A stretch of 64,000 bases of DNA from Bdellovibrionales bacterium (lineage in GTDB: Bacteria; Bdellovibrionota; Bdellovibrionia; Bdellovibrionales; JAGQZY01), in NCBI GenBank assembly GCA_041736155.1, contig JBGSUL010000035.1, forward strand, positions 2,100 through 66,099, given 5' to 3'. The notes beneath the pieces were generated by a model. The model saw only the letters and a program-made list of their open reading frames with translations. It did no database searches and was not told the origin of the DNA. Within the stretch, counting starts at the first letter, position 1, and every line of letters starts with the position of its first letter. The translations under genes and the position numbers were made by a program. Below are positions 15,352 through 54,288 of the stretch, piece after piece.

Positions 15352-15406
15352 CCTTCCCCCTTGTTGTTAAGACAATTTGGAGGAAGATTTCGGTTAGCTT
15401 AAAATC

Positions 15407-16702
15407 CTAGGCACTCTCAGCGCCAGAGGACTTCGCTTTCTGAACTTCTTCCTCGGTTCTATGCACCAAGACGGGATCTGCTTTCTTGCTGATCACGTCT
15501 TCATTTATTGTACATTCCTTCACGTTCTCCATGGAAGGAATTTCATACATGATGTCCAGCATTGCAGTTTCAATCACACCGCGAAGTCCACGCGCCCCAG
15601 TTTTTCTATCCAAGGCTTGCTTGGCAATCGCCTTGAGAGCGGGATCCGTGAACTTAAGGTCTACATTTTCATAAGAAAAGAGCTTTTGGTATTGCTTTAT
15701 CAACGCGTTTTTTGGTTTGACGAGAATCTCGATCAGTGCATTCTCATCCAGCTCCTCAAGAATGGCCACAACCGGAAGTCGCCCGATGAATTCTGGGATC
15801 AATCCGAACTTCGCCAAATCGTCTGGTTCTAATTTTTTCAAGGCGCTCGATAGCCCCATGTGATCTTTTTCTTTTTGGGTTTTGATATCTGCACCAATAC
15901 CCAGAGTTTTTTGGGTCACGCGATTTTCAACGATTTTATCTAGACCAACAAACGCACCACCACAGATAAAGAGGATGTTGGTTGTGTCGACCTGAATAAA
16001 CTCCTGCTGCGGATGCTTTCTTCCCCCTTTAGGCGGAAGATTGGCGACCGTGCCTTCGAGAATTTTTAAAAGAGCTTGCTGAACACCCTCTCCGCTCACA
16101 TCTCGTGTGATCGAAGGGTTCTCTGATTTGCGGGAAATCTTATCGATTTCATCGATATAAATGACCCCACGTTGCGCTTTTTCAATGTCGTAATCGGCAG
16201 ATTGTAAAAGATTGAGAACCACGTTCTCCACATCTTCACCCACGTAGCCGGCTTCTGTTAATGCTGTGGCATCGGCCATCGCAAAAGGCACGTTCAGGAT
16301 TTTTGCAATTGTTTGCGCTAAGTATGTTTTCCCCGACCCGGTGGGGCCGATCAGGAGAATGTTACTCTTCGCAATTTCGATATCTTCTTTTTTGCGTGAT
16401 TTACTGAGGTTATTAATACGCTTGTAGTGGTTATGTACCGCTACCGAGAGCGCTTTTTTCGCTGTGTTTTGGCCAATGACGTATTCATCCAAGAAGGCTT
16501 TGATCTCAGAAGGTTTTGGAACCTTAAACTGATGCGATTGTTTTTCTTCGCGCCCTTTTTCTTCTTCGATAATATCCGTACAAAGATCAATACATTCATC
16601 ACAAATGTAAACGCCAGGCCCCGCGATCAATTTTTTGACCTCGTTCTGGTTTTTACCACAGAAACTACATCTTAAAAGGCTCGCGCCCTCGCGTCGGCTC
16701 AT
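15407..16702 (-). CDS. clpX: ATP-dependent Clp protease ATP-binding subunit ClpX
   Basis: Zinc-finger [14 protein letters not shown], Walker [13 protein letters not shown]. 4-nt overlap with clpP. Confidence 0.97.
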
Positions 16703-17334
16703 TGCTTATTTTCCTTTTTAGAGGATTTACGTGAAGCCACAATCGTATCAACAAGACCAAATGCTTTGGCCTCTTCTGCTGTCATATAATTATCTCGATC
16801 CATAGCGCGATCAAGAACATCATAATGTTGCTTTGTGTGGTGTTCATAAATTTCAGTCAAAGTTCTCTTCGTTCTCAGCAACTCACGGGCGTGAATTTCG
16901 ATATCACTCACTTGGCCACCAAGACCACCGCCGCTAATCAGAGGTTGATGAATCATTACGCGCGCATGCGGTAAGCAATAACGCTTGCCGGGGGCGCCCG
17001 CCGTTAGCAAAAGCGAACCCATGCTGGCCGCCATCCCAATGCAGGTTGTTGCCACATCGCATTTTACGAACTGCATAATGTCGTAGATACCCATGCCCGA
17101 CGTCACAACGCCGCCAGGTGAATTGATATAGAGTTGAATGTCTTTTTCTGGGTTATCCGCCTCAAGAAAAAGCATTTGCGCGATCACATTGTTGGCAACG
17201 GCATCATTAATGGCTGTACCCAAGATGATAATGCGATCCTTTAGCAGCCGAGAATAGATGTCATAACTTCTTTCGCCGCGTGAGGTTTGCTCAATGACTA
17301 TTGGAACTAGTGTATTCATAATTTCGTTGCTCAT
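16699..17334 (-). CDS. clpP: ATP-dependent Clp protease proteolytic subunit ClpP
   Basis: 211 aa. Has the GMAASMGS catalytic-Ser motif and the MIHQP His motif. Confidence 0.97.
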
Positions 17335-17549
17335 AGAACTCCCGGTGTAAATATGTGCTTTTTCTTCCTATGACAAGGTCTCTTCGGGAAAATCTCTTGT
17401 AATATAAAGCCTAAAAAACCCTCTTCTCACTCAAATAGGACTATGGTACTGTTTTGGACCTTCGTCGTACTGACAATACAAACTTTAACGACGATCTTGG
17501 GACTATCTTTGTAAGAATCATCCCAATGAGACAACCATGGAGATTATAT

Positions 17550-19037
17550 ATGAAATTAAACGTCGCTGCGTCATCCGGAAATTCAACTGCTGATGTTGTC
17601 ATTGTTTTTTGTGGACAAAAAACCGTGAAAGAGAAAACACAGACTTTGGTCTTAAGCCCAAAAGCTCCTACCCATTTTGGCGATTTGCTCAAATCTCTTC
17701 CAGAAGAGCGCTTTAAGGGGGGCGAAGGCGAAATCGCCTTTTTACGTCAGACTAAAACTCCCCACACCCTCTTTGTGGGCTTAGGTGAAACTAAAAAGTG
17801 GAATGCGGAAAATGCACGTCGCTGGAGTGCTCCTCTGTTCAGTTGTTTGAAGAGCGAAAAGTTGCGCTCGGCCCGCGTTCTTGCGCCGTCTGGTCTTTCT
17901 GCCGAAGAAGCTGTCATCGGGTTTACTGAGGGCTTTTTAATTGCGAATTACCAATTTACCGCCTTCAAAGAAGAACAAAAAAACAAATTCTCTGTGGAAA
18001 ACATTGAGATTGCTGTGGAAAAGTTTTCAGCGCCGCTGAAAAAAACCATGGAAGAAAGCGAATCTGTGGCGTGGGCCGTGAACTTCGCTCGCTACCTGGG
18101 AGATTGCCCCGGAAACTTTATGACACCGACACAACTCGGCAAAGAAGCAGAGAGTTTAGCTAAGGGCACAAACCTTAAAGTTCAAGTTTGGGATAAAAAA
18201 CGGATCGAAAAAGAAAAAATGGAATCTTTCCTCGGTGTCTCTTACGGTAGCGATCAGGAACCTAAATTTATCTGCATGGAATACAAAGGCGGCTCCGCAA
18301 AACAAAAACCAATTTGTTTTGTCGGTAAAGGTCTCACTTTTGATAGTGGCGGAATTTCCCTCAAGCCCGGTGCCGGGATGGAAGAAATGAAATTTGATAT
18401 GTGCGGAGGCGCGGCCGTGATTGCCACAATGGGTGCCATTGCAAAAATGAAACTTAAAGTGAACGCCATCGCTTTTGTTCCAACTACCGAAAATATGCCT
18501 GGTCCTTCTGCCAACAAACCTGGTGATATTCGTAAAGCGCGCAACGGGAAAACCATCGAGGTGAACAACACCGATGCCGAAGGTCGCTTGATTTTGGCCG
18601 ACGCTCTTGTCTATGCCAGCGAGCAAAAACCGGCGATGATTCTCGATGCCGCCACCCTCACCGGCGCCATGATGATTGCCTTAGGTAATACCCACACTGG
18701 ATTTTTCACTCGCGATGCAAAACTTCGCAAAACAGTGGAAGAATGTGCCGAGTCCTGTGGCGAACGAGTCTGGGCAATGCCGCTGATTGATGATCATGGC
18801 AAAGACATGAAGGGCTATTATGCTGATTTGACCAACTTAGCTCCATCGCGCAATGCGGGCAGTTCTACAGCTGCGGCCTTTTTAGAATCCTTTGTTGATA
18901 AAGAGATTCCATGGGCCCACTTTGATATCGCTGGCACCGCATGGAATGTGAGTGGGCGCCTCCCCTACATCACAACGAAAGGTGCTTCGGGCGCTATTGT
19001 TCGCACCTTTATTGAGATGGCCCGCAACCATAAATGA
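17550..19037 (+). CDS. pepA: Leucyl aminopeptidase (M17)
   Basis: NTDAEGRL signature and VGKGLTFDSGG. I chose the ATG at 17550 (GGAG 7 nt upstream) instead of the track start at 17454, whose extension overlaps the divergent promoter region. Confidence 0.93.
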   Translation: MKLNVAASSGNSTADVVIVFCGQKTVKEKTQTLVLSPKAPTHFGDLLKSLPEERFKGGEGEIAFLRQTKTPHTLFVGLGETKKWNAENARRWSAPLFSCLKSEKLRSARVLAPSGLSAEEAVIGFTEGFLIANYQFTAFKEEQKNKFSVENIEIAVEKFSAPLKKTMEESESVAWAVNFARYLGDCPGNFMTPTQLGKEAESLAKGTNLKVQVWDKKRIEKEKMESFLGVSYGSDQEPKFICMEYKGGSAKQKPICFVGKGLTFDSGGISLKPGAGMEEMKFDMCGGAAVIATMGAIAKMKLKVNAIAFVPTTENMPGPSANKPGDIRKARNGKTIEVNNTDAEGRLILADALVYASEQKPAMILDAATLTGAMMIALGNTHTGFFTRDAKLRKTVEECAESCGERVWAMPLIDDHGKDMKGYYADLTNLAPSRNAGSSTAAAFLESFVDKEIPWAHFDIAGTAWNVSGRLPYITTKGASGAIVRTFIEMARNHK

Positions 19038-19058: not shown

Positions 19059-20156
19059 CTATTTTCTAATATCTAAACCTTGCTTTCGCGCCTCTTGCAT
19101 AAAGAGGCGTAAGAATTCGCGATTGTACTGGTCTGGCACAATGTTCAATTCTTCTCCACTGTCCATGGTTTCAATTTGCTGAATAAATTGCTGAGCTGTC
19201 GCCGCTAAAAATACATTGATAAAAAGTGGGATTTCTTCGTGCGGTAGGTTTTTCATATAAAGTTCCCACAAAACACCGCGCGCAGGATCTAACAAAGTAT
19301 AAACGTGTGCGGGTTCTTTTTGCCAATTTTTAAAATCAACTAATTGGAAATCTCGTGGCGAGACTTCTACATCTTTGTTGCGCCCTCGGTAAAGTAAGTT
19401 CTGCTCTATCATTTCCAACTCATCTTCCGGAGCAAGAGCTTTCATCACAATCTGAGGGTCCTTCCAAAATAAGGCCGCAAAGGAATCCGCAAACAGTTCG
19501 TTGTGTGCAAGGGTTAACTCGTGAATCTTTTCAAACCAAAATAAATTTGGCACTTGCACGCCCAACTCTTCAGTTTTTTGATGGTTGAGTTGTTGAAGAC
19601 GCGCCAGCTCTTTGGGGGATTTAGTAGACTTTGCGACTTTTATGAGGGCTTCAATTTTTGTCAGCTCCTGTCGAAGCTTTCGCAAGGCTGGAGTCTGATT
19701 AATCTTATCAATTTCTTCCTCGGAATTGATAACCAAATTTAAATATCTGATAGTCTGACCATGCCACAGCAAAACAAGATTCTCTCTAAAAATGGCGTGA
19801 CCAAATTCATGAGCATAAATAGGCGCAATGACCCGCTCCACATCAGCTAACTCTTCCTGATTGTTGAGAACACCAAGACGAATAAATCCTTTACCTACAT
19901 GGAATGCTGAAACGCCCACATTTTGCGGTAGAATATGAACATCTACCGTTGGAAACTGATTATAGGGACTCAGTAAATTGAACCACTCGTCACGAAGCTG
20001 AGAAATCCTTTCGAGAGCGGCAGCGGCCGCTAAATCGAGTTCACTGGGCTCAACTTCGTCTTGGAATAAATCCTGGCAACTCTGCTGTGCTTCGCTCGGA
20101 ATAATAAATAATATTAGAAAAAATAAAACAGTGACCTGTTTAAGGAATCTCCCCAC
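19059..20156 (-). CDS. Secreted HEXXH zinc metallopeptidase-like protein (365 aa)
   Basis: Signal peptide ..LFFLILFIIPSEA/QQ. IYAHEFGHAIF contains HEXXH. GTG start preceded by GGGGGAGAG. Confidence 0.6.
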   Translation of the reverse strand: MGRFLKQVTVLFFLILFIIPSEAQQSCQDLFQDEVEPSELDLAAAAALERISQLRDEWFNLLSPYNQFPTVDVHILPQNVGVSAFHVGKGFIRLGVLNNQEELADVERVIAPIYAHEFGHAIFRENLVLLWHGQTIRYLNLVINSEEEIDKINQTPALRKLRQELTKIEALIKVAKSTKSPKELARLQQLNHQKTEELGVQVPNLFWFEKIHELTLAHNELFADSFAALFWKDPQIVMKALAPEDELEMIEQNLLYRGRNKDVEVSPRDFQLVDFKNWQKEPAHVYTLLDPARGVLWELYMKNLPHEEIPLFINVFLAATAQQFIQQIETMDSGEELNIVPDQYNREFLRLFMQEARKQGLDIRK

Positions 20157-20307: not shown

Positions 20308-21201
20308 TTATTGAGGAGTGACGATCAATCCCGAGCGGTATCTCTCTTTGGGTGTCCAGCGTGGCCCGCCACCCGTTTTTAAAGGATTGAACTCACTGTA
20401 CTCCAAATTGTTGATTGAGTTGAGGTCGCGCATGCTGTGGGCCTCGATCACTTCACCCGCGCGGCCAGAGAAAACATGGTAACCGGCGTGGGCGATTCCC
20501 ACAAAAAATGGAATTCCTTTAAAAAAAGCGGGCTGAGTCTCATTAAAACCAACGAGTGAAACAGCATCATCCACTGTAAGGCCACGCTCATAGTAGAATC
20601 CCTTTTCTGTAGCCTGTCTGTAGCGCTCCGCATGTCCACCCCAAACCGGCATCCACTTTTTGCCCTCTTTCAACTTATTCAATGTTCGATCCTCTTCGTC
20701 CCAATCAGCATTTTGCCAAGGGGCTGGATTCCAATAGTATGACTTCCAACCGAGTAGGATTAAGTTTTTCTGCAAATCTGTACCAAAAAAATTATTTCCC
20801 TTTTTAAGCTCATCATTTATTTTTTCAAAAGTGGCTTCTGTTCCAACCGCGGCAAAGCCTTCTCGCAAACAACGCAAGGTGAGGCCAATGCAACTGATCG
20901 GTTCCAACTCATAGACCAGTTCTTTGGGTTTTTTATAAAATGCCAGTGCAGCCATCAACCCTGCCTTGGTGGAATAATCCGACCGGCGATTCCCGTAGTA
21001 CTTGGAGACACCCCACTTATTAAAAAATTCCAGGTGATCTTGATAAACCCAATCTAGACAATCCGCCGCAGTCGCTGCAATTTCATCGATATTTGCGCGA
21101 TGAACCTGAACTTCCTCGTCGGTGAACGTGGCCACTTGGCTCCACGCTATTTGAGAAAATGACAAAAGGATTAAGGAAAGAATCAATAGACTTTTAAACA
21201 T
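20308..21201 (-). CDS. Secreted protein (297 aa), unknown; possible papain-like/NlpC-P60-like Cys-His hydrolase
   Basis: Signal peptide MFKSLLILSLILLSFSQIAWS/Q. ..EPISCIGLTL.. followed later by FFVGIAHAGYHVFSGRAGEVIEAHS resembles the Cys...His-containing strands of NlpC/P60. This is unverified. Confidence 0.5.
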   Translation of the reverse strand: MFKSLLILSLILLSFSQIAWSQVATFTDEEVQVHRANIDEIAATAADCLDWVYQDHLEFFNKWGVSKYYGNRRSDYSTKAGLMAALAFYKKPKELVYELEPISCIGLTLRCLREGFAAVGTEATFEKINDELKKGNNFFGTDLQKNLILLGWKSYYWNPAPWQNADWDEEDRTLNKLKEGKKWMPVWGGHAERYRQATEKGFYYERGLTVDDAVSLVGFNETQPAFFKGIPFFVGIAHAGYHVFSGRAGEVIEAHSMRDLNSINNLEYSEFNPLKTGGGPRWTPKERYRSGLIVTPQ

Positions 21202-21327
21202 GGGACCCCCATGCCGTGGTTGTAGCCCTCATAGATATAAACGGAAAGCCTCTTGCTCCCCGGCTGAAGATTTTGGAAAAATTAAAAGAGGCATGTTGAA
21301 AAAAAGTGAGACTGTTCCGCGCGTCTC

Positions 21328-21984
21328 TTAAAACCGAATAAAGAGTGGCTCTTTGTTCACTTGGAGGAATTCTTGTTTAGTAAGTTTTAAAACATCCTCT
21401 TCGTTTTGCGGATCTTTATAAAACTCAATGCTTTCCAGCTCCCAAAGGTGTGGCCAATCACCAAATACATTTTCGATTTGCACGTCGACTTCGAGATTTA
21501 AGTCTTTCCATGAGAACTGCTGATCCTGGGCTGGGCGACGAAAGATCTCAGCAAATGGCAACGGAATATCAGAAACACGGTCGCGGTTGCGCGGATGCAT
21601 ATTGCAAGGTGCGCGTACAAAAACTTGGGTTTGGCGTCCCCCCACAGCGGCGCCTTCGGCCACCAAACGCAAACGGATATAGGGATACTCTAAACATACG
21701 AGGTTCAACCCGCGGCTTCCCGGCACAGGGAATTGCCCCAAGCTGATTTTGTGTTTTCCTTCATGGCTTTCGAGGGAGATCGAAGAAATAATTGTTTCAC
21801 GTTTAAACACACGCATTGGTTTATCAAGGATTTGTTGGAAATCTTTTGATTCTCGAATGGCTGCCGGAGCGCGGTCATTCATATAAGGCACAATCCATTC
21901 AAAGTCCCGATTGGACATCCAATAAGAATAAAATGAACAGCCAATCAACAGCACAAGAAATGCTAACGATTTAAAATGTTTCAT
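21328..21984 (-). CDS. Lipoprotein (218 aa), unknown function
   Basis: Internal ATG at 21984 is preceded by AAGGAG (5-nt spacer). It gives MKHFKSLAFLVLLIGC, a canonical lipobox. The track start (22005) adds 7 residues. Confidence 0.65.
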   Translation of the reverse strand: MKHFKSLAFLVLLIGCSFYSYWMSNRDFEWIVPYMNDRAPAAIRESKDFQQILDKPMRVFKRETIISSISLESHEGKHKISLGQFPVPGSRGLNLVCLEYPYIRLRLVAEGAAVGGRQTQVFVRAPCNMHPRNRDRVSDIPLPFAEIFRRPAQDQQFSWKDLNLEVDVQIENVFGDWPHLWELESIEFYKDPQNEEDVLKLTKQEFLQVNKEPLFIRF

Positions 21985-22045
21985 TCCCACTCCTTGGGTT
22001 TTCATTCGAGGGCGTCTTGCCCTCCTACACTCCTCAATAGTGTAC

Positions 22046-23287
22046 CTATTTTTTTTGATATCCGCGATAGTTTACGTGCATTTTTTGAGTCTCTCGACCA
22101 ATGGCCAAGAGGCCCATCTTCCCGACCCAGCCATAAACATTTTCTAGCGGGCAACCTTCCGCTTTGATTTTTAAATCGCTCAGGCAAAGCTTTTTGTAAA
22201 CCGCGCCTGGACTATTCAAACTGTCCTTCTCGTCTTTTTGTTCGTGGGTTCGCAAAAAACCACCCGCCAAAGAATCACCGATCATATAGATCGTCGGTTC
22301 CGCCGTCGTCGCCCCCGATTTCACCACTGTCGGTACACCTTCTTGAATAATCACTTCGTCAAAGCGTCCGCCGCCTTTTTGTGCTTTCATTTTTTTTCGT
22401 GAGTCATAGCTCCACTTTAAAACGTCTTCGCCCGAATTGACCCGTGTCACTCCCAGCCCATAAGTTCCCGAGTTGTTTTTGATAAAAACATAGGGCTCTT
22501 CGGAACACTGGCGTTGCCGGTAGTCATTGCGAATTTGCTCAAGTACGAAATCGGTTTTCTCGGCCAAACGACGACGGCTGGCTTCGTCCCCCACATCAAA
22601 CTCTTGGAAAAGTTCCGTACGCACCTGAAAGTTCCAAGGGTCTACTTCTAAAATCGTGGCAAATTCTTTGGCCACCTGATTGTAACACTCAAAATAAATA
22701 CTTTTTTGTCTCTGATACCAACCCATCTCCATGGGGGGCGTCATTTTGAGCTGGGTGAGATCTGTCCATGCATCATAGGTCTTGGAAAAATCATTATTGC
22801 TAATCACCACATCTGGCTGAAAACCTTCGACGGATAAAGTTCCCTGTTGATTTTGCACGCGGTGAACTAACACTTTGTTGCCAAGATAGGATTCCATTTC
22901 CATTTGTTCTGACTCTTGCAAACCCGGCATGCCGACGCGCACATCATAACCTGCCGTCGTTAGCAGCTCGAGAATGGCGTACACATTGCCCCAGTAGTAC
23001 ATGTTTTTAAGATGATCTTCGGTGATCAAAAGAATTTTTTGTGCGTTGGGATAATGGCGAGTGAGGTAACGTTTGACCAAGTCTGGCGCATGGTCACGAT
23101 CCGTGGGGCAGATATTATTAAATCCCGCAGGATAAATGTTGGCATCGACATTGGTGACCTTAAATGAAGAGTCGCGAATGTCGTAGCTAGAATAAAATGG
23201 AAGTTCTAATGCTGAAGATTCGCTTTCGTACCAAGCGCAAAGACGATCCATCTTTTTAAGTATTTGTTGGTGAAAGTCCGCACTCAT
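22046..23287 (-). CDS. Probable glutamate--cysteine ligase of the rare GshA (T. ferrooxidans-type) family
   Basis: 413 aa. The N-terminal pattern ..YDIRDSSFKVTNVDANIYPAGFNNI.. matches my recollection of PF08886/TIGR02049. Not verified. 4-nt overlap with the upstream membrane-protein gene. Confidence 0.5.
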   Translation of the reverse strand: MSADFHQQILKKMDRLCAWYESESSALELPFYSSYDIRDSSFKVTNVDANIYPAGFNNICPTDRDHAPDLVKRYLTRHYPNAQKILLITEDHLKNMYYWGNVYAILELLTTAGYDVRVGMPGLQESEQMEMESYLGNKVLVHRVQNQQGTLSVEGFQPDVVISNNDFSKTYDAWTDLTQLKMTPPMEMGWYQRQKSIYFECYNQVAKEFATILEVDPWNFQVRTELFQEFDVGDEASRRRLAEKTDFVLEQIRNDYRQRQCSEEPYVFIKNNSGTYGLGVTRVNSGEDVLKWSYDSRKKMKAQKGGGRFDEVIIQEGVPTVVKSGATTAEPTIYMIGDSLAGGFLRTHEQKDEKDSLNSPGAVYKKLCLSDLKIKAEGCPLENVYGWVGKMGLLAIGRETQKMHVNYRGYQKK

Positions 23288-24051
23288 ACAACTCCTTGAT
23301 TCTTCATGTCCGCAATCGCTTCCGCACCACCCGCAATAAAAAGCGGGAGGGAAATAGTAAATAATCCTGGAATAAAACTAAAAAAGAGAATGATGCTCGC
23401 TAGTCCTAAAAAGAAGGGCCATTGCACGCGAAAAATGCGCCAACGCTGCGACAAGGAGTAATTCATGCATTCAAAACTAAAATCGATACAGTCATAGGCC
23501 ATCATTAAACAAATCAATAGTGGCACAAAGATCACTGCAAAGGACCAAAAGGACAAGATGAAAAGAATGGCAGAAATTGTCATAAACACAACCAACTTGA
23601 TACAGCTGATAATGAACATCTTTAATGTGGTGTAAAGCCAACGGAAAAAATTATTTTTAAATACCGGAGCCACTCCCTTTTTGACTAAAATACGATCGGC
23701 GATCAAAGAATAAAAAGGGGCTCCCAAAATACAAAGAACTAAATAGGAAAAATAAAAGGTAAATAGAACCAGAAAAATCCAAAACAAACCCTGATAGAGT
23801 GCAGCAAATAAGGAAAACTCTCCGACTTTAACAAGATCAATAAAAGACGCGAATCCCGGCATCCAGGTGAGGAAAAATTGGAGGAGCGCTCCCGATTCAT
23901 TCCACAAAAAATAGATGACATAAACAGCAACTACAATCGCCAACCAAAAGGGAATCGCCGCGAGCAGAAAAAGGGGCAAGCTGGTAAAAATCCAAAAAAA
24001 TCCCTGAAAGGGGACAAAAAATCCTTTAAAAAAAGAACCGACTGATGACAC
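23284..24051 (-). CDS. Polytopic inner-membrane protein (255 aa), EI24/CysZ-like
   Basis: At least 6 hydrophobic helices. The N-terminal FFKGFFVPFQGFFWIF..P pattern is reminiscent of CysZ/EI24. GTG start 4 nt after GGAGG. Confidence 0.4.
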   Translation of the reverse strand: MSSVGSFFKGFFVPFQGFFWIFTSLPLFLLAAIPFWLAIVVAVYVIYFLWNESGALLQFFLTWMPGFASFIDLVKVGEFSLFAALYQGLFWIFLVLFTFYFSYLVLCILGAPFYSLIADRILVKKGVAPVFKNNFFRWLYTTLKMFIISCIKLVVFMTISAILFILSFWSFAVIFVPLLICLMMAYDCIDFSFECMNYSLSQRWRIFRVQWPFFLGLASIILFFSFIPGLFTISLPLFIAGGAEAIADMKNQGVV

Positions 24052-24075
24052 TCATCCTCCGAGGTGAATTGCGCG

Positions 24076-25152
24076 TTAAAGAGTATTATTGACTGGGCGA
24101 TGGGGTGCCGGTGCTGCTTGAGGCTCTGGCTTTTTCTCGTCCGTATTGTTTTTCTTTTGCGCCTTTTGTAAACCAAACTCTAAGTTATGTACAATGGTTC
24201 GGGCGTTTTGCTCAAGAACATCCATATGTCGAAAGAAATCTACATTGAGTTGTTTATTCACTACCAACTCTGGTGGACGGCGAAGGGCGCGTAGTTGATT
24301 GATTTCGTCGACAAACGTGGCCAACTCACCGATTTGTTGACGATTGTTCTCGAGCATTTTTATGGGCGTTGTGCTGAGAGGCTTACTTTTGACTTGTGTA
24401 AAATATCTTTCATATTCATTGCTGAGGACCTCGACAGATTTCTCCGCCTGATCCCTCGTGCCCATCTCGGCCACTTCGAGAAGTTCTTTGCGACAGTGAT
24501 CAATAATCTGTTGGGATTTATAAGGTGTAATGGAAATGGGCTTCATCCCTTGAAAAGCCATATACAAGCGGGCTTGGAATAAGTTCTTTTCGTCCTTAGC
24601 TAGATACTTGTACTGTTCAAAAGATTTTTCGTGAATAGCGTCGCGCTGGGCGAGAGCTTTGTCCCATTTGCCGAGAACATAATACGTGTTCGCTAACCGC
24701 GCTGGGGTTTCGATGTGTTTGATAAAATTATCGCCCGCACCCAAGACATTCTTTAAATCTGATAAGGTGATTTGTAGATCGTTGTATTGCAGTGTTCTCT
24801 CATAGATCCACGACATCCGATACAGCGCTTGCGCCGTGATCGCCGAATTATAGCCAGCCCCATGGCGCACAGCTTGCTTGTAGGCTTCGATGGCCAAATT
24901 CTCTTGTCCTACACTTTCGCGGATTTCCCCCAACATAATGTACGCTTGCCCCAACCAATACACATCCTTGGCTGACCCTAAATACTTCTGCACTTCAGCT
25001 TCTGCACGCTCGGCATTTTGATTGCGTAAAAAGTACTGCGCCTCTTTCAACTCAACAGGATAATCCACCGTCGAAAGCATCGACTCCGACGTCCAACTGG
25101 AACAACGAACCATCGCTAAGCCGACGCACAAAAAGAGCAGGGCCTTTTTCAT
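24076..25152 (-). CDS. Exported TPR-like protein (358 aa), possibly a lipoprotein
   Basis: Signal peptide MKKALLFLCVGLAMVRCSS (lipobox non-canonical). TPR-like helical repeats (..WLGQAYIMLGE.., ..LANTYYVLGKWDKA..). ATGA overlap with the upstream ATPase gene. Confidence 0.65.
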   Translation of the reverse strand: MKKALLFLCVGLAMVRCSSWTSESMLSTVDYPVELKEAQYFLRNQNAERAEAEVQKYLGSAKDVYWLGQAYIMLGEIRESVGQENLAIEAYKQAVRHGAGYNSAITAQALYRMSWIYERTLQYNDLQITLSDLKNVLGAGDNFIKHIETPARLANTYYVLGKWDKALAQRDAIHEKSFEQYKYLAKDEKNLFQARLYMAFQGMKPISITPYKSQQIIDHCRKELLEVAEMGTRDQAEKSVEVLSNEYERYFTQVKSKPLSTTPIKMLENNRQQIGELATFVDEINQLRALRRPPELVVNKQLNVDFFRHMDVLEQNARTIVHNLEFGLQKAQKKNNTDEKKPEPQAAPAPHRPVNNTL

Positions 25153-26195
25153 AGAAATACCTCATTCAAAATTTTTTGCATATCCGCAAGCTGAACCTCG
25201 GACGTGTGTGCACTGGTTTCGGGGAGAAAATACACAGGCACTTCACGTTGATCTCGCTGTAGCTTTTCTTCCACTCTCTTCATTTGATTATGATAGTAGT
25301 TGAAGACCTTGTCATAGAAATTTTGCAGGAGAGGCCAGGTCTCAAGTCCCGTTATTTTTTGCGCGGATAACCAATCGGGATAGGCTCGATTTACAATAAC
25401 ATGTGGGGCGGAGATTCCCTGCTGCTTAAAATCGGCAAGGACATCATCCGTTTCTTGCAATTTTTGTGGCTCGGGAGACACCACCAGAAAATAACACACT
25501 TGCGGGTTTTTGAGTCGTTGTGCGAGATACTCTGCGGCCTCGACGATTTCGCTCTGTAAAGAAAAGAATGCCGCAAAAAAATTCTCCATCTGGCGAACAA
25601 ATTCACCGCCCGCCAACACACCGATGACGGTCGAAAAAATCTTTTGTGAAGCGCGGCTAGAAAAAGACGTACCCTCGAGGACTGTTTTAGCTAAAAGGTT
25701 CTCTTTAAAAAGTTTCAAAACTCTTTGCGGTGAACGGAAAAAGTCAGCGGCATGATTGACGGGGGGCGTGTCGACGACCACATAATCGTACTCTTCCGAG
25801 CGCAAAATCTGCGCGAGTTTGTATATGGTCGAAAGAGACTGGTTCTCCGCTAAACGTGTGACCACTTGATGAAACAATGAATTCTCATTCCACTTTTTGT
25901 ATTTTTCTTCACCAAATTTTGACACAATAAAATCACGAATCATTTTTTGCGAGTGAATCAAATGCACGTCCACATACACATCACCCACGACATGGCGCTT
26001 ATAATCGTCGGTCTCGAGATTCATGCCAAAGGCTTCCCCTAACCGCCGTGCCGGATCGATGGTCATCAGGCCCACTTTTTTACCACGACTTGCCAGCTCC
26101 AAAGCCCATGTCGCTGAGAGTGTTGTTTTGCCCGTCCCGCCGTTTCCGACAAACAGAAAGACTCTATACTTCTGTAAATAATCTGCTAATTTCAT
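25149..26195 (-). CDS. ArsA/Get3-like P-loop ATPase (348 aa)
   Basis: Deviant Walker A GNGGTGKTT. TIDPARRLGEAFG and VVVDTPPVNHAADFF correspond to the ArsA DTAPTGH switch region. RBS GGAGAA. Confidence 0.75.
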   Translation of the reverse strand: MKLADYLQKYRVFLFVGNGGTGKTTLSATWALELASRGKKVGLMTIDPARRLGEAFGMNLETDDYKRHVVGDVYVDVHLIHSQKMIRDFIVSKFGEEKYKKWNENSLFHQVVTRLAENQSLSTIYKLAQILRSEEYDYVVVDTPPVNHAADFFRSPQRVLKLFKENLLAKTVLEGTSFSSRASQKIFSTVIGVLAGGEFVRQMENFFAAFFSLQSEIVEAAEYLAQRLKNPQVCYFLVVSPEPQKLQETDDVLADFKQQGISAPHVIVNRAYPDWLSAQKITGLETWPLLQNFYDKVFNYYHNQMKRVEEKLQRDQREVPVYFLPETSAHTSEVQLADMQKILNEVFL

Positions 26196-27042
26196 CGCGA
26201 TTCTCCAGAGTCTTTGACCAATCCGTGTAGAAAAAGGGAATTTGATAAACAGTTCCTGTCTCTTTCTTTAACTCCTGTAAAGCTTGGTCTTGATAGTTTT
26301 TGACGTCGTATTGGGCTTTTAAAAATTTTTGCAGCTCCTCAGGCATGGCGGTTGAAAGCGGTTCTAAGTCTTTGGGCACAGAGAAAACTTTATTGGCCAC
26401 CAGTTGGCAGTCTTGTTGAAGTTTTTCTTGGAGCTGTGTGCGCAGCTCTTGGGATTCGTGGAGGGAGTATCTTTCCAGGTTGGTCACAAGAAGCGTGCGA
26501 GTGAGTTTTGGATCTTGTAGCACCTGATGAATCTGCCGGGATTGCTCATACATGGGGCCGCTGGTTACTGTCTGCGACAAAGAAAGCGGCGTTTTGAGCA
26601 AAGCCAGAAAATGCCCCGTACTGACGGCATCCACCACAATCACATCGTAATTGAGTGGCGGCCCGTGACGACGGGTCTGACTGGTCAGTTTTCCCAAGAA
26701 AGCGATCTCACGTAACCCTGGAGCCAAGTAAATGAGCGATTTGAGCCATTGGTTGCTTAAGAAAATCCCACTCACGCGCGGCACTTTTACCCAATATTGT
26801 ACATATTCGGCCAAACACGCCTCTCCCAACCACAAAGCTAAGTCGAAACCATAAGGAGTTTTTTGCGCCGTTGTGCCTTGGAAGGGTTGCGAAAAACCTA
26901 GAGAGCGTGAGAGGTAGCTTTCTGGCACCATATCGACGAGCAGGGTTCTCTTCCCTTCACTGGCAAATTTGCGTGCTAATAAAGCCGCTACCAACGACTT
27001 TCCTACGCCTCCTTTACCTGTAACCCATTGAATGTGTTGCAA
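26164..27042 (-). CDS. ArsA/Get3-like P-loop ATPase (292 aa), paralog of the downstream gene
   Basis: Walker A GKGGVGKS. VVDAVSTGHFLALLK corresponds to DTAPTGHxxxLL. TTG start preceded by AAGGAG. 32-nt overlap with the next gene. Confidence 0.75.
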   Translation of the reverse strand: MQHIQWVTGKGGVGKSLVAALLARKFASEGKRTLLVDMVPESYLSRSLGFSQPFQGTTAQKTPYGFDLALWLGEACLAEYVQYWVKVPRVSGIFLSNQWLKSLIYLAPGLREIAFLGKLTSQTRRHGPPLNYDVIVVDAVSTGHFLALLKTPLSLSQTVTSGPMYEQSRQIHQVLQDPKLTRTLLVTNLERYSLHESQELRTQLQEKLQQDCQLVANKVFSVPKDLEPLSTAMPEELQKFLKAQYDVKNYQDQALQELKKETGTVYQIPFFYTDWSKTLENRDEISRLFTEV

Positions 27043-27101
27043 AATATCTCCTTAGTCGGCGATGAGTGCTCAGATTTGGTGCCATTTATTTCACCAGAAC
27101 C

Positions 27102-27130: not shown

Positions 27131-27245
27131 CCAGCAAATTAAATGCTCGGCCTTTCTTAAACCAAAGTATTGGAATCCGTAAACTTTGTCGAGTTGCATT
27201 GTAGATTTGAATAGCAGAGTTATAAATCACTGAGGAGACGAAATT

Positions 27246-28544
27246 ATGAAGACAGATCTAGAAAACGTATCAAGCCTGGAAAAAAAATTAAAAATTGAAG
27301 TGCCTCCTCAAACTGTGAATCAAGAATTTTCACGCGCCTTTAAATATTTGCAACGCGAAGCCAACATCAAAGGTTTCCGCAAAGGCAAAGCACCTATTGA
27401 TACCATTAAAAGTCTCTACGGCGACAAAGTAAAAAACGATGTCGTGCAAAACTTAGTGCAAACGGCTTATTGGAATGCGCTGAAGGAACATAAACTTGTT
27501 CCTGTCTCTATGCCCTCCATTGATTTTGAAGAGATTGCTGAAAACGCACCCTTTACATTCACAGCAAATTTCGAAATCCGCCCCGAAGTAAAAATCGTTA
27601 AGAAAGACGGCTTTAGTGTGGATAAAGAAAAGATTGCGGTCAGCGATGAGCGCATTGATTCCGTGGTGGAAAATGTTCGCCAGAGCAATGCTGTCTTTCA
27701 AACAATCAGCGAGACACGTCCTCTTGCTACTAAAGATTTTGCGATCATTGATTTTGAAGGTTTTATCGATGGCGCTCCACTCGAAAATGGTAGCGCTAAA
27801 GGTCACCAACTAGAAATCGGTGCCAACCAATTTATTCCAGGCTTTGAAGAACAACTCATTGGCATGAATGTCACCGAGCAAAAAGAAATCACTCTGGCTT
27901 TCCCAGAAGACTATCATGTTGACACACTCAAGGGAAAACCTGTCACTTTCAAAGTCACTCTTCATGAAATCAAAACCAAAGCACTTCCTGAGTTGACGGA
28001 AGAGTTCTTCCAAAAAATTGGACAAAAAGATTTAGCCAGCCTGCGCGACCAAATCCGCAAAGAAATGGAAGACAGCGACACACAACGAATTGAACAAGAG
28101 CTCCGCGATTCGTTGATGAAGGTGTTTGTCGATGCCAACCCGGTAGAAGCACCCAAAGCTCTGCTCGAAGAGCAACGCAAAGCCTTGGTGAATGATTTCC
28201 AAAGCCGCTTAAAATCACAAGGTTTCAACGACGAAAACTTTGATGAATACCAACAAAAATGGAATGACGACTTTGATAAAACCGCAGAGTTTATGGTGAA
28301 GTCCGCCTTCTTGATCGACAAATTGGCGGAAGAAGAAAAACTGCACGCCACGGATGCTGACATGGATGTGAAGTTTGAAGAAATGGCAAAGAAGTTTGGT
28401 ATCGAAAAAGATAAAGTGAAGTCTTTCTACAAAGAAAAAGATGGTCTTCAACGTTTGTCATATCAGATCACCGAAGACAAAGTGTTCCGTTACTTGTTGG
28501 GCAATTCCAAAGTTCAAGAAGTGGCAAAAAAGGCTACGACTTAA
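27246..28544 (+). CDS. tig: Trigger factor
   Basis: 432 aa. Has the N-terminal ribosome-binding region (GFRKGKAP), a central FKBP-type PPIase (FIPGFEEQLIGM) and a C-terminal domain. Confidence 0.95.
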   Translation: MKTDLENVSSLEKKLKIEVPPQTVNQEFSRAFKYLQREANIKGFRKGKAPIDTIKSLYGDKVKNDVVQNLVQTAYWNALKEHKLVPVSMPSIDFEEIAENAPFTFTANFEIRPEVKIVKKDGFSVDKEKIAVSDERIDSVVENVRQSNAVFQTISETRPLATKDFAIIDFEGFIDGAPLENGSAKGHQLEIGANQFIPGFEEQLIGMNVTEQKEITLAFPEDYHVDTLKGKPVTFKVTLHEIKTKALPELTEEFFQKIGQKDLASLRDQIRKEMEDSDTQRIEQELRDSLMKVFVDANPVEAPKALLEEQRKALVNDFQSRLKSQGFNDENFDEYQQKWNDDFDKTAEFMVKSAFLIDKLAEEEKLHATDADMDVKFEEMAKKFGIEKDKVKSFYKEKDGLQRLSYQITEDKVFRYLLGNSKVQEVAKKATT

Positions 28545-29106
28545 TAAAAAAGTTTTTGAGTAGGGCTTCGCCCTGCTCTGACAGAATGGACTCGGGGTGG
28601 AATTGCCATCCCTCCACTGGCCAATTTTTATGCTTGAGGCCCATGATGATTCCTTCTTCCGTATGAGCATGTGCCTCAAGACACGAGGGCAGACTTTCAC
28701 TCTCCACAATCAACGAATGATATCGCACCGCTTGGAACGCATTTTTGATCTCATGAAAAGAACCTTGCTGCTGGTGGTAGACAAGACTTCTTTTCCCGTG
28801 CATAGGTTTGGGCGCTTGGATCACTTTGCCGCCAAATACTTCCGCGATCACCTGGTGCCCTAAACAGACACCTAAAATGGGATGGCTTTGCTGATATTGT
28901 TCAACAACCCAACGACTTAAAACAGCATCTCGTGGATGACCGGGGCCTGGTGAAATAAGAAAAGAGTGGATCTTTCCCGAGTTTGCACTGATCCATTCTT
29001 TATTTTCCCAATCACTTTTTAAAACTTTAACTTCTTGGTTGAGCACCTGAAGCATTTGCACCAGGTTGTAAGTAAAAGAGTCGTAGTTGTCGATGACCAG
29101 AATCAT
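28534..29106 (-). CDS. pabA: Aminodeoxychorismate/anthranilate synthase component II (glutamine amidotransferase)
   Basis: MILVIDNYDSFTYNLVQ.., nucleophile GVCLGHQ, ..HPES. 4-nt overlap with pabB. Its 3' end overlaps the tig 3' end by 11 nt (convergent). Confidence 0.9.
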   Translation of the reverse strand: MILVIDNYDSFTYNLVQMLQVLNQEVKVLKSDWENKEWISANSGKIHSFLISPGPGHPRDAVLSRWVVEQYQQSHPILGVCLGHQVIAEVFGGKVIQAPKPMHGKRSLVYHQQQGSFHEIKNAFQAVRYHSLIVESESLPSCLEAHAHTEEGIIMGLKHKNWPVEGWQFHPESILSEQGEALLKNFFIKS

Positions 29107-30821
29107 TCAAGACTCCAGCGCACGCTCACTCGACCACGCACAGAGTTAGTTAGCAATAGCTCTTCGGCCTCTTGTAAATTTTTAAGTGTGAGATTTTTCT
29201 CTACAGCTTGAAGATCGCGCAATGTCGACGCCCGCTCGATGCCAGGCAAGGCTCCAGCGCTGAGTGGTGGTGTGTACCACTTTCCCTCTCTTTTTAAAAA
29301 GACATTGTGGCGACTAGCTTCCACCAGCTCGTCATTCTCGTTGAGAAAAAGAACATCATAAAGTCCACAAGCCTGTGCCTCTTCCCAGGATTGATCATAA
29401 ACTTCACGTTGAGTTGTTTTGTGGCGACGAAAAATATCGGTAGATACAATTCGCTCTTTCGCAAGGCCGACTCGGTCTCCTGGCGGACGAAGAATATCTT
29501 GGTTGGAGATTTTTATTTCGCCGTTCCAAAAAATTTGAATTTTAATTTTTTGTGGTGAATTCAAACGTTCTTGCAGGAGCTGTAAATTTTTTTGCAATCC
29601 TTCTTTGTCGAATTCAAAATCAAAATACATGGCCGATGAACTCAAACGCTGAAGATGCTCTGTGAGATTTTTAAATTGTTGACCATCATAAAGAAGCGTT
29701 TCAAAAATTTGAAAATAGGAATTTAACTTACGCGCAAAACGTGCTTTGAGCTGGGCCTCGTACCATTCTTTTTCTGGTTGCGAATCGGAGACAATTCCCC
29801 CACCCACTCCCAAAGTGTAAATGCCTTGACGATGGACCACGGTACGAATCGCCACGTTAAAGGAGCCGTTTCCTTGGCCATCCAAAAAGCCCAAAGCACC
29901 GGTGTAATAACCCCGCGGCGAAGATTCCTTCTGAGAAATGTGCTTCATCGCACTCCACTTCGGTGCCCCGGTGATCGACCCACATGGGAAAAGGCTTTGC
30001 AAGATCTCGTGGAGACTGGTGTTGGCATTCATCTGCGCAGAAATCTTCGAAGTCATCTGGTAAACTGTAGAGAGTTTCTGAATGGCAAATAGCTCTTCGA
30101 CTTTCACTGTTCCTGGCTTGGCTAAGCGACCCAGATCGTTTCTTAATAGGTCCACAATCATCAAATTTTCGGCTCGTGACTTTTCATCTTGTGCCAAAGA
30201 TTCAGGAGACTCGGTCAGCGGCGCCGTGCCCTTCATCGGTTCTGTGGTTATTTTTTCGCCTTGTTTTTGGAAAAAAAGTTCCGGTGAAAAAGACAGGACT
30301 TGATAATCGTCAAAATCGAGAAATGCACAGTATTTGGTTTTTTGTTGCTCACGGAGAGAATCATAAAGCTCTAAAGGGAGGTGTGTGCTGCGAAACTTTT
30401 TTTGTAACGTTTGATTCAGCTGATAGAATTCTCCTGAGTGAATAAACGACTGAATCTGCTCTTGTCGACTTTGATATTCTTCTTTTGTTGTGTCGCTTTG
30501 ATAAGCAAAGAGGGTCGGCTCTGATAAAGGCAAAAGTTTTTTCCCTTGCACTCTCTTCAGAGTTTTAAAAACGTAAAAATGCAAAAAAGGTGTGTCGAGG
30601 TTGGTCGGACTTGTATTTTGCTTGGGAAAAAAGACATAACCAGCCTCGTAGGCCACGGCTCCGGCAATCACGTATTGCTCGCGCTGATACCTTTGCAACC
30701 GTTCCAATGCTGGGATCACTTCTTCAAGGTGTTCAGCGCGAACTTCGTCCACGTAACCTTCAAACTCAACTCTCTCGCCGGTAACGGCATCTTCAAAAAA
30801 GAAGAGTTGAGCCTCCTTCAC
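29103..30821 (-). CDS. pabB: Aminodeoxychorismate synthase component I fused to aminodeoxychorismate lyase (PabB-PabC)
   Basis: The chorismate-binding domain has PCGSITGAPK. The C-terminal roughly 200 aa (FETLLYDG..HLQRL.., HKTTQR, ..EASRHNVFLKREGKWYTPP..GALPGIER..LLLTNSVRG) match class IV aminotransferase / ADC lyase. Confidence 0.85.
   Translation of the reverse strand: MKEAQLFFFEDAVTGERVEFEGYVDEVRAEHLEEVIPALERLQRYQREQYVIAGAVAYEAGYVFFPKQNTSPTNLDTPFLHFYVFKTLKRVQGKKLLPLSEPTLFAYQSDTTKEEYQSRQEQIQSFIHSGEFYQLNQTLQKKFRSTHLPLELYDSLREQQKTKYCAFLDFDDYQVLSFSPELFFQKQGEKITTEPMKGTAPLTESPESLAQDEKSRAENLMIVDLLRNDLGRLAKPGTVKVEELFAIQKLSTVYQMTSKISAQMNANTSLHEILQSLFPCGSITGAPKWSAMKHISQKESSPRGYYTGALGFLDGQGNGSFNVAIRTVVHRQGIYTLGVGGGIVSDSQPEKEWYEAQLKARFARKLNSYFQIFETLLYDGQQFKNLTEHLQRLSSSAMYFDFEFDKEGLQKNLQLLQERLNSPQKIKIQIFWNGEIKISNQDILRPPGDRVGLAKERIVSTDIFRRHKTTQREVYDQSWEEAQACGLYDVLFLNENDELVEASRHNVFLKREGKWYTPPLSAGALPGIERASTLRDLQAVEKNLTLKNLQEAEELLLTNSVRGRVSVRWSLE

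Positions 30822-54212: not shown

Positions 54213-54288
<76 letters not shown>

What the first reader, a model, noticed from the sequence alone, without database searches (positions are those of the whole stretch)
21328..27042. Six-gene operon led by two paralogous ArsA/Get3-like ATPases with envelope partners
The order on the minus strand is: ArsA-like (GKGGVGKS; DAVSTGH), 32-nt overlap, ArsA-like (GNGGTGKT; DTPPVNH), ATGA overlap, exported TPR-like protein, EI24/CysZ-like polytopic membrane protein, 4-nt overlap, GshA-type ligase, then a lipoprotein (LLIGC). No ArsB, ArsC or ArsR is present, so arsenic efflux is unlikely. Split ArsA-like pairs mimic the pseudo-dimer of ArsA/Get3. Coupling to a membrane protein and exported proteins raises the possibility of a membrane-protein or cofactor targeting/handover function.
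Basis: partly seen in the sequence, partly recalled or inferred. Interest (0 to 1): 0.55.

Follow-up and report, generated by a model that had tools for sequence, protein, structure and literature searches.

The report
BagAB-like ATPase pair in glutathione operon
Two neighbouring ArsA/Get3-like ATPase genes are distant relatives of the poorly understood BagA/BagB stress-protection pair of Mycobacterium tuberculosis, and throughout the predatory Bdellovibrio group they sit in one conserved operon with the first enzyme of glutathione synthesis and several envelope proteins, which gives a new clue to what this ATPase family does.

Summary
The two ATPases are not ArsA or canonical Get3. They are a divergent BagA/BagB-type pair: best profile and PDB matches are Rv3679 and Rv3680 (6BS3), and they are collinear with those chains. 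In about 74 of 80 distant loci an A-type gene sits directly upstream of a B-type gene. The pair is complementary. A keeps the signature lysine (GKGGVGKS) but lacks the switch I TDP aspartate. B keeps TIDP but has lost the signature lysine (GNGGTGKT). This predicts one complete composite ATP site and one degenerate site. The organism is in Bdellovibrionota. Among 46 gshA loci of that group with enough flank, 45 carry A and B upstream of gshA, 40 a TPR lipoprotein, 34 the small anchored periplasmic protein and 16 EI24, mostly with 4-nt overlaps. None of these four partners was detected next to BagAB-like pairs in other phyla. The "lipoprotein" call for the last gene is doubtful, because the wider family has an N-terminal anchor and no lipobox. 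Arsenic efflux and a canonical GET pathway are not supported. The most likely role is a BagAB-type stress-protection ATPase co-expressed with thiol supply and envelope factors, but this is inferred and untested. Verdict: a known kind of ATPase pair in a new conserved operon, of moderate interest.

The parts
27198..27226 (-). Promoter-like match (TTTATA-17-TACAAT) in the 203-nt divergent intergenic region shared with tig
   Evidence: This is weak evidence: the number of such matches in the region equals the shuffled expectation.
27048..27053 (-). Shine-Dalgarno AAGGAG, 5 nt upstream of the TTG start of ATPase A
   Evidence: Sequence read.
26164..27042 (-). ATPase A (292 aa), BagA-type. It keeps the deviant Walker A signature lysine (GKGGVGKS) and has switch II DAVSTGH, but switch I has VDMVP in place of the TDP aspartate. 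It has no long helical insert.
   Evidence: best NCBIfam hit BagA, 87.5 bits; 6bs3_A, residues 5-233 against 24-254.
25149..26195 (-). ATPase B (348 aa), BagB-type. The signature lysine is lost (GNGGTGKT), switch I TIDPARRL is kept, and switch II is DTPPVNH. Its helical subdomain is about the length of Get3's. It overlaps A by 32 nt.
   Evidence: best hit BagB, 119.7 bits; 6bs3_B, E=3.9e-37 with the family profile; collinear with archaeal Get3 3ug6.
24076..25152 (-). TPR-solenoid protein (358 aa) with an N-terminal signal sequence and an invariant Cys17, so a probable lipoprotein. The family is known only from Bdellovibrionota. It has an ATGA overlap with ATPase B.
   Evidence: 39 clusters only; pLDDT 83.5, all helical; generic TPR matches only.
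23284..24051 (-). EI24/CysZ-family polytopic inner-membrane protein (255 aa). It is an optional member of the cluster.
   Evidence: PF07264, 58.8 bits against cutoff 32; CysZ equivalog only 26.6 against cutoff 140; present in 16 of 46 loci.
22046..23287 (-). Glutamate-cysteine ligase GshA of the PF08886/TIGR02049 type (413 aa). It overlaps EI24 by 4 nt.
   Evidence: (341.9 bits against cutoff 293.9, full-length match).
21328..22005 (-). Small N-terminally anchored (or lipidated) periplasmic beta-rich protein (225 aa) with two invariant cysteines (C104, C134). It matches no known family or solved fold.
   Evidence: 238 clusters; pLDDT 92.2.
21242..21262 (-). Terminator-like hairpin 66 nt after the last stop codon
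   Evidence: This is weak evidence: the count equals the shuffled expectation.

Best explanation
Shown: the locus is an operon conserved across Bdellovibrionota. Its core is a BagA/BagB-type pair of Get3/ArsA-fold ATPases, followed by a periplasmic TPR lipoprotein, optionally an EI24/CysZ-family membrane protein, the glutamate-cysteine ligase GshA, and usually a small anchored periplasmic protein with two invariant cysteines. Inferred from motifs and from the solved M. tuberculosis homolog: A and B form a heterodimer with one complete ATP site and one degenerate site. The complete site lies on B, which has its own Walker A lysine and switch I aspartate and would receive the signature lysine from A across the interface. 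The site on A has no switch I TDP aspartate and receives no trans lysine from B, so it probably binds nucleotide and regulates rather than hydrolyses. Only B has a Get3-sized helical subdomain. Inferred from gene context and from mycobacterial phenotypes, with a probability of about 0.35: the ATPase is a cytoplasmic, ATP-gated chaperone or membrane-associated factor that protects the cell and its envelope against electrophile, nitrosative or oxidative stress, and in this phylum it is co-expressed with the rate-limiting step of glutathione synthesis and with periplasmic factors. It is not an arsenite pump and not a canonical GET pathway.
For: Identity: the best NCBIfam hits are BagA for A and BagB for B. 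The best or near-best PDB hits are 6bs3_A and 6bs3_B, collinear without large gaps. The A-then-B gene pair is adjacent in about 74 of 80 distant loci from Actinomycetota, Myxococcota, Binatia, Oligoflexales and others. Asymmetry: 73 of 74 A sequences keep GKGGxGK[ST], 85 of 87 B sequences lack the signature lysine, 85 of 87 B sequences have [ST]xDP in switch I, and 73 of 74 A sequences lack it. Operon: the same order occurs in L082-L087 at 43-64% identity of B, in B. bacteriovorus and in L089. Among 46 gshA loci, A is present in 45, B in 45, TPR in 40, the small protein in 34 and EI24 in 16. Overlaps of 4 nt dominate the A/B, B/TPR and TPR/EI24 junctions. Gene content downstream of the cluster varies while the cluster stays contiguous. 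Function: bagAB protects M. tuberculosis from glycerol-derived and nitric oxide toxicity, as summarised in PMC10597346, and mutants change streptomycin, rifampicin and citrate survival. That methylglyoxal and NO detoxification in Gram-negative bacteria depends on glutathione is established knowledge, not tested here.
Against: Both ATPases score far below the NCBIfam equivalog cutoffs (87.5 against 400; 119.7 against 521) and share only about 25-34% identity with actinobacterial members, so their function may have diverged. No gshA, TPR, EI24 or small-protein homolog was detected near the pair in the 80 loci from other phyla, so the thiol link is specific to this lineage and could be incidental. 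The flanking housekeeping synteny (tig, pabAB, pepA, clpPX) is also conserved in this phylum, so part of the conservation may be inheritance rather than selection. A keeps an acidic residue two positions upstream (VDM/VEM), so hydrolysis at its site cannot be excluded. Heterodimer formation, expression and any phenotype are untested here. The primary BagAB papers could not be read.
Confidence: 0.55

Rival explanations
1. This is a Get3-like targeting system. The heterodimer captures hydrophobic segments of membrane or envelope proteins and hands them to a membrane receptor, possibly the EI24 protein, with the TPR protein acting as an Sgt2-like co-chaperone.
For: B is collinear with the tail-anchor-binding archaeal Get3 (3ug6) through the helical client-binding region. 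Many bacterial Get3 homologs are predicted to have hydrophobic grooves (PMC6593721). The envelope proteins are co-operonic. The changed aminoglycoside survival of bagAB mutants would fit altered membrane-protein biogenesis.
Against: The TPR partner has a signal peptide and an invariant lipobox-position cysteine, so it should be periplasmic and cannot be a cytosolic co-chaperone. A lacks the helical insert, so only half a groove could form. There is no CxxC zinc clasp. EI24 is present in only 16 of 46 loci and is absent in B. bacteriovorus. None of the operon products is tail-anchored.
Confidence: 0.13
2. This is an ArsA-like pump energiser. The A/B dimer docks on a membrane permease (EI24/CysZ-like, or one encoded elsewhere) and converts it into an ATP-driven transporter of an anion such as sulfate, cysteine, gamma-glutamylcysteine or glutathione, linking transport to GshA.
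For: ArsA-ArsB is a precedent for this fold. The CysZ family includes sulfate permeases (PF07264). EI24 and gshA overlap by 4 nt in the window. The mycobacterial genes are traditionally annotated as anion transport. A periplasmic protein with two invariant cysteines could use exported thiol.
Against: EI24 is missing from most loci (30 of 46), and the protein scores far below the CysZ equivalog cutoff (26.6 against 140). No conserved metalloid- or ligand-binding cysteines are present in A or B. No permease is conserved next to the pair in other phyla.
Confidence: 0.12
3. This is an operon of convenience. The ATPase pair with its TPR gene, and gshA with its neighbours, are functionally unrelated genes kept adjacent by the conservative gene order of this chromosomal region.
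For: tig, pabA/pabB, pepA and clpP/clpX flank the cluster in nearly all Bdellovibrionota loci examined, so synteny here is conserved in general. The link to gshA is not seen in any other phylum.
Against: A and B lie upstream of gshA in 45 of 46 loci across GshA divergence down to about 43% identity. The junctions are overlaps or very short gaps. Genes are gained and lost within and immediately downstream of the cluster (EI24, the small protein, variable genes before pepA) without separating A-B-TPR from gshA.
Confidence: 0.2

Closest known systems
BagA/BagB (Rv3679/Rv3680) of Mycobacterium tuberculosis, PDB 6BS3-6BS5
   Same: Both are two adjacent genes in A-then-B order. The best profile and structure-sequence matches pair A with BagA and B with BagB, and the alignments are collinear. 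The complementary motif asymmetry is also present in the Mycobacteriales locus L018.
   Different: Identity is only about 25-34% and scores are far below the NCBIfam equivalog cutoffs. Both proteins here are shorter (292 and 348 aa, against chains of 340 and 394 residues). Here the pair is embedded in an operon with gshA, a TPR lipoprotein, EI24 and a small periplasmic protein, none of which was detected next to the pair outside Bdellovibrionota.
Get3/TRC40 (eukaryotic and archaeal tail-anchored protein targeting ATPase)
   Same: Both have the SIMIBI deviant Walker A fold. B has a helical subdomain of Get3-like length and aligns end to end with archaeal Get3.
   Different: This is a heterodimer of two diverged subunits rather than a homodimer. 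There is no CxxC zinc clasp. A lacks the helical insert. No Get1/2/4/5 or cytosolic Sgt2-like partners are present. Both proteins score below the TIGR00345 cutoff (81 and 83 against 135).
ArsA arsenite-pump ATPase
   Same: Both match Pfam PF02374, and two non-equivalent nucleotide-binding halves work as a pseudo-dimer. A's switch II DAVSTGH resembles DTAPTGH.
   Different: The two halves are separate genes. There are no metalloid-binding cysteines and no arsB, arsC, arsD or arsR. Scores are far below the TIGR04291 cutoff (50 and 51 against 650).
Thiobacillus ferrooxidans-type glutamate-cysteine ligase (TIGR02049/PF08886)
   Same: Gene 5 is a full-length member scoring above the curated cutoff.
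   Different: Nothing differs in the enzyme itself. What is new is its near-obligatory linkage to a BagAB-like ATPase pair in Bdellovibrionota.

Membership tests
BagAB-type heterodimeric Get3-like ATPases | Adjacent co-directional A-type and B-type genes, with A upstream of B | tested here: met
   Window, and about 74 of 80 distant loci plus all Bdellovibrionota loci.
BagAB-type heterodimeric Get3-like ATPases | Each subunit is closest to its own type (A to BagA, B to BagB) and collinear with the solved chains | tested here: met
   A scores 87.5 bits against BagA and 25.3 against BagB. B scores 119.7 against BagB and 59.3 against BagA. The B profile hits 6bs3_B at E=3.9e-37.
BagAB-type heterodimeric Get3-like ATPases | NCBIfam equivalog score cutoffs (NF053622: 400; NF053621: 521) | tested here: not met
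   87.5 and 119.7 bits. These are distant family members, not equivalogs of the mycobacterial proteins.
BagAB-type heterodimeric Get3-like ATPases | Complementary asymmetry: A has the signature lysine but no switch I TDP; B has TDP but no signature lysine | tested here: met
   I derived this feature here from 74 A and 87 B sequences. It is not a published definition of the family.
BagAB-type heterodimeric Get3-like ATPases | Physical A-B heterodimer with ATPase activity | not testable with these tools
   No multimer prediction or experiment was available. It is inferred from 6BS3 and from the translational coupling.
Get3/TRC40 | Homodimer clasped by zinc through a CxxC motif | tested here: not met
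   No CxxC in A or B, and no cysteine is conserved across all orthologs (A has one positionally conserved cysteine near residue 76; B's C234 is absent in L084). The two subunits are different.
Get3/TRC40 | Helical client-binding subdomain (hydrophobic groove with TRC40 insert) on both protomers | tested here: inconclusive
   B aligns through this region with archaeal Get3. A is even shorter than ArsA there (alignment). Groove hydrophobicity was not modelled.
Get3/TRC40 | TIGR00345 subfamily cutoff (135 bits) | tested here: not met
   80.8 and 82.9 bits.
ArsA | Single polypeptide of about 580 aa with two fused halves, above the TIGR04291 cutoff (650) | tested here: not met
   Two separate genes of 292 and 348 aa, scoring 49.8 and 50.9 bits.
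ArsA | Metalloid-binding cysteines and ars operon context (arsB, arsC, arsD, arsR) | tested here: not met
   No conserved cysteines. No Ars families among the operon genes or the called neighbours.
GshA (TIGR02049/PF08886) | Full-length match above the curated cutoff | tested here: met
   341.9 against 293.9, model positions 2-402 of 403. PF08886, 419.7 bits.
CysZ sulfate transporter | NF003433 equivalog cutoff (140 bits) | tested here: not met
   26.6 bits. It is a member of the broader PF07264 EI24 family only.
Bacterial lipoproteins (gene 6) | Lipobox [LVI][ASTVI][GAS]C at the end of a signal peptide, conserved across the family | tested here: inconclusive
   LLIGC is present and conserved in the close clade, but only 4 of 46 family members have a lipobox, and AlphaFold models one continuous helix over residues 8-34.

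The most novel reading that the evidence does not exclude
The BagAB-like heterodimer is the cytoplasmic ATP-driven component of a trans-envelope thiol or redox homeostasis system. It would couple glutathione or gamma-glutamylcysteine synthesis by GshA to delivery or export across the inner membrane (through EI24 where present, otherwise another carrier), for use by the periplasmic TPR lipoprotein and the two-cysteine anchored protein. This would give the first mechanistic context for the whole BagAB family, including the M. tuberculosis NO and glycerol tolerance factor.
Probability: 0.12. Interest if true: 0.72.

Novelty: new variant of a known kind. Interest (0 to 1): 0.42.

Why it matters
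BagAB contributes to M. tuberculosis tolerance of nitric oxide and of glycerol-derived toxicity, and affects antibiotic survival, yet its molecular function and partners are unknown. This locus shows that the same kind of A/B pair is almost always fused into one operon with glutamate-cysteine ligase and envelope proteins in a second, unrelated phylum that includes the genetically tractable Bdellovibrio bacteriovorus. That yields a testable hypothesis (a link to thiol-based stress defence or envelope homeostasis), a motif-based prediction of which ATP site is catalytic, and two uncharacterised periplasmic partner families, one of which has a confidently predicted fold that matches no solved structure.

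Tried and rejected
1. Arsenic efflux was rejected: there are no Ars partners and no metalloid cysteines, and the ArsA model scores are very low.

2. An anti-phage defence system was rejected: PADLOC gave only P-loop-level matches of about 20 bits.

3. The TPR protein as a cytosolic Sgt2-like co-chaperone was rejected because of its signal sequence and lipobox cysteine. Its fold matches only generic TPR solenoids, with TM-scores of 0.45 or lower, and the weak PilW hit (E=0.004) was not supported by the structure.

4. A conserved third partner of the A/B pair across phyla was not found by tblastn or by all-against-all clustering of the 80 distant loci. The recurrent neighbours there look lineage-specific; from the representative sequences I read them as ETF subunits, a cysteine desulfurase, a methyltransferase and a metallophosphoesterase. 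The Oligoflexales locus has what look like MlaFED genes instead.

5. The genome-contig scan was swamped by the generic DTPP pattern and returned only distant relatives. The close relatives came from the look-up of encoding contigs and the metagenome scan.

6. The primary BagAB papers (PMC6597400, PMC8404711) are not held. Searches for Bdellovibrio literature on these genes found nothing relevant.

7. Cluster look-ups gave no organism names. The taxonomy rests on the names attached to GshA and TPR homologs.

8. No Rfam element lies in or near the operon.

9. The small protein has no sequence or fold match in the PDB.

Profile and PDB score rankings were used as a proxy.

Full report
**Observation**

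- ATPase A, 27042-26164, 292 aa, TTG start with AAGGAG 5 nt upstream.
- ATPase B, 26195-25149, 348 aa, overlapping A by 32 nt.
- A TPR-like protein, 25152-24076, with an ATGA overlap.
- An EI24/CysZ-family membrane protein, 24051-23284.
- GshA, 23287-22046, with a 4-nt overlap.
- A 225-aa protein, 22005-21328.

The quoted motifs are all present. Pfam and NCBIfam confirm ArsA_ATPase for both ATPases, EI24 (58.8 bits against a cutoff of 32) and a full-length GshA above the curated cutoff (341.9 against 293.9). The TPR-like protein scores below the Pfam TPR cutoffs, and the last protein has no family hit. A promoter-like site in the 203-nt region shared with the divergent tig gene, and a terminator-like hairpin 66 nt after the last stop, bracket the cluster. 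Such matches are no more frequent here than in shuffled sequence.

**What the ATPases are**

Against NCBIfam, A scores best on BagA and B on BagB, the paired Get3-like ATPases Rv3679 and Rv3680 of M. tuberculosis. Both are far below the equivalog cutoffs, and also below the GET3/ArsA subfamily and ArsA cutoffs.

Against PDB sequences, B's best hit by a wide margin is 6bs3_B (E=6.7e-25 alone, 3.9e-37 with a family profile). A hits 6bs3_A over residues 5-233 against 24-254 without large gaps.

In 80 loci from named genomes that encode distant B-type proteins (mostly Acidimicrobiia and other Actinomycetota, also Myxococcota, Binatia, Thermodesulfobacteriota, an Oligoflexales MAG and an archaeon), an A-type gene lies immediately upstream of the B-type gene in about 74. 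Every upstream gene scores higher with the window's A, and every downstream gene with the window's B. The split pair is therefore an old, widespread two-gene module of an already described kind.

**A complementary asymmetry**

Of the A-type sequences with a detectable P-loop, 73 of 74 keep the deviant Walker A signature lysine (GKGGxGK[ST]). Of the B-type sequences, 85 of 87 have replaced it with S, P, N, T or A.

The reverse holds for switch I. There, 85 of 87 B sequences keep the [ST]xDP motif that carries the catalytic aspartate in Get3 and ArsA, and 73 of 74 A sequences lack it. The window has VDMVP in A and TIDPARRL in B.

In dimers of this ATPase class, the signature lysine reaches into the partner's active site; that is established knowledge of the class and was not tested here. 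The heterodimer is therefore predicted to have one complete composite site on B and one degenerate site on A. This is an inference. A keeps an acidic residue two positions upstream, so some activity at its site cannot be excluded.

Neither protein has a CxxC motif or a cysteine conserved in every ortholog. B aligns end to end with archaeal Get3 (3ug6) through the helical client-binding region, while A is shorter than ArsA there.

**Organism and operon conservation**

GshA and TPR homologs that carry names are from Bdellovibrionaceae, Pseudobdellovibrionaceae, Bdellovibrio bacteriovorus and other Bdellovibrio species.
- Relatives with 43-64% identical B proteins have the same gene order, divergent from tig. 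L086 lacks EI24.
- B. bacteriovorus has tig, then A, B, a 370-aa TPR homolog and gshA, without EI24 or the small protein.
- A metagenome scan seeded with GshA returned 80 loci. With profile HMMs, 46 loci have enough flanking sequence. Of these, 45 carry A and B upstream of gshA, 40 the TPR protein, 34 the small protein and 16 EI24.
- The most frequent layouts are A-B-TPR-gshA-small (16 loci) and the window's six-gene form (11 loci, plus one with a duplicated small-protein gene).
- Four-nucleotide overlaps dominate the A/B, B/TPR and TPR/EI24 junctions (my start-codon choice favoured the nearest start).
- None of the four partner genes was detected in the 80 loci from other phyla, and no other third partner recurs there. 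The Oligoflexales locus instead has what look like MlaE, MlaF and MlaD genes.

One caveat: the housekeeping neighbours (tig, pabA/pabB, pepA, clpP/clpX) are also syntenic across this phylum, so part of the conservation may be inherited. However, genes are gained and lost inside and just downstream of the cluster without breaking it.

**The partners**

*TPR-like protein.* In every ortholog it has a cysteine directly after the signal hydrophobic region, mostly in a good lipobox (SGC, VGC, AAC). The window's MVRC is a degenerate version. It is therefore a probable periplasmic lipoprotein. Its family has only 39 clusters, all from this phylum. The AlphaFold model is good (pLDDT 83.5, all helical) and matches only generic TPR superhelices.

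*Last protein.* It belongs to a family of about 238 clusters at 50% identity. The model is very confident (pLDDT 92.2): one long N-terminal helix and a beta-rich domain. It has no significant PDB match by sequence or fold. Two cysteines are invariant across 46 diverse members. Only 4 of those 46 have a lipobox, and all have a 16-22 residue hydrophobic N-terminus. The lipoprotein call therefore holds at best for the window's subclade.

*EI24.* It is a member of the broad EI24 family but is not a CysZ equivalog (26.6 bits against a cutoff of 140).

**Mechanism**

Shown: the identity of the genes, the A/B asymmetry and the conserved operon.

Inferred: a BagAB-like heterodimer with one catalytic site, and a role in stress protection linked to thiol supply and the envelope.

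The functional inference has three supports. The first is the near-obligatory linkage to gshA. The second is the reported role of bagAB in protecting M. tuberculosis from glycerol-derived and nitric oxide toxicity (as summarised in PMC10597346), together with altered streptomycin, rifampicin and citrate survival of mutants. The third is the established dependence of methylglyoxal and NO detoxification on glutathione in Gram-negative bacteria, which was not tested here. I put this reading at roughly 0.35.

The rivals are:
- A Get3-like client-targeting role. The periplasmic location of the TPR partner, the missing insert in A and the optional EI24 count against it.
- An ArsA-like pump energiser. 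The absence of EI24 from most loci counts against it.
- An operon of convenience. The 45 of 46 linkage and the overlapping junctions count against it.

Arsenic efflux and anti-phage defence are excluded.

**Novelty and verdict**

The ATPase pair is a divergent member of a known family, so the split pseudo-dimer is not new. What is new is the conserved operon across Bdellovibrionota that joins it to glutamate-cysteine ligase and to two lineage-specific periplasmic protein families, together with the explicit complementary-site model. I found no description of this in the searchable literature. The primary BagAB papers could not be read.

This is moderately interesting. It gives a testable handle, in a tractable organism, on a family whose function is unresolved, but the function itself remains inferred.

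Noticed in passing
window 19059-20156 (-): A 365-aa protein with a signal peptide and no Pfam or NCBIfam hit, but with an HEFGH (HExxH) motif in IYAHEFGHAIF. It may be an unclassified secreted zinc metalloprotease. An ortholog was seen only in L082.
   Followed up: partly
window 20308-21201 (-): A 297-aa secreted protein with no family hit, lying between the operon and the HExxH protein. Orthologs were found only in L082 and L083. This stretch between the operon and pepA varies among relatives.
   Followed up: partly
window 29103-30821 (-) and 28534-29106 (-): The 572-aa gene appears to be PabB fused to a class IV aminotransferase (PabC-like) domain, judging from the Pfam calls on the orthologous genes in related loci. 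It overlaps pabA by 4 nt.
   Followed up: no
window 24076-24100 (C-terminus of the TPR lipoprotein); alignments A2 and A4: The TPR lipoprotein family ends in a conserved short tail (consensus ...EDPNL; VNNTL in the window). A PDZ-containing CtpB-type C-terminal protease gene lies about 6 kb away (31413-32729). Any connection is untested.
   Followed up: no
window 21328-22005 (-): The small anchored protein gives a very confident AlphaFold model (pLDDT 92.2) with no Foldseek match in the PDB below E=0.1, and it has two invariant cysteines (C104, C134). It may represent an undescribed periplasmic fold family of about 238 clusters.
   Followed up: yes
L019 6978-12365 (Oligoflexales MAG): Here the A/B ATPase pair is followed, after a 102-nt gap, by genes that look like MlaE, MlaF and MlaD (an envelope lipid transporter) by my reading of the translations. 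This is a different envelope association from the one in Bdellovibrionales.
   Followed up: partly
L089 6018-7037: The B-type ATPase gene is split into two ORFs (201 and 134 aa) in this MAG, from either a frameshift or pseudogene or an assembly error. The rest of the operon is intact.
   Followed up: no
window 12892-19037: A block of proteostasis genes lies next to the operon. pepA (527 aa, M17 leucyl aminopeptidase) is supported by the Pfam calls on its syntenic orthologs. The 211-aa and 431-aa ORFs are in the positions and of the sizes of clpP and clpX in those relatives, and the 819-aa ORF may be lon. Those three were not scanned in the window. M17 peptidases can cleave Cys-Gly in glutathione turnover, which may or may not be relevant.
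   Followed up: no
window 54213-54285 (+): A single tRNA gene, the only Rfam match in the window (70.4 bits).
   Followed up: no
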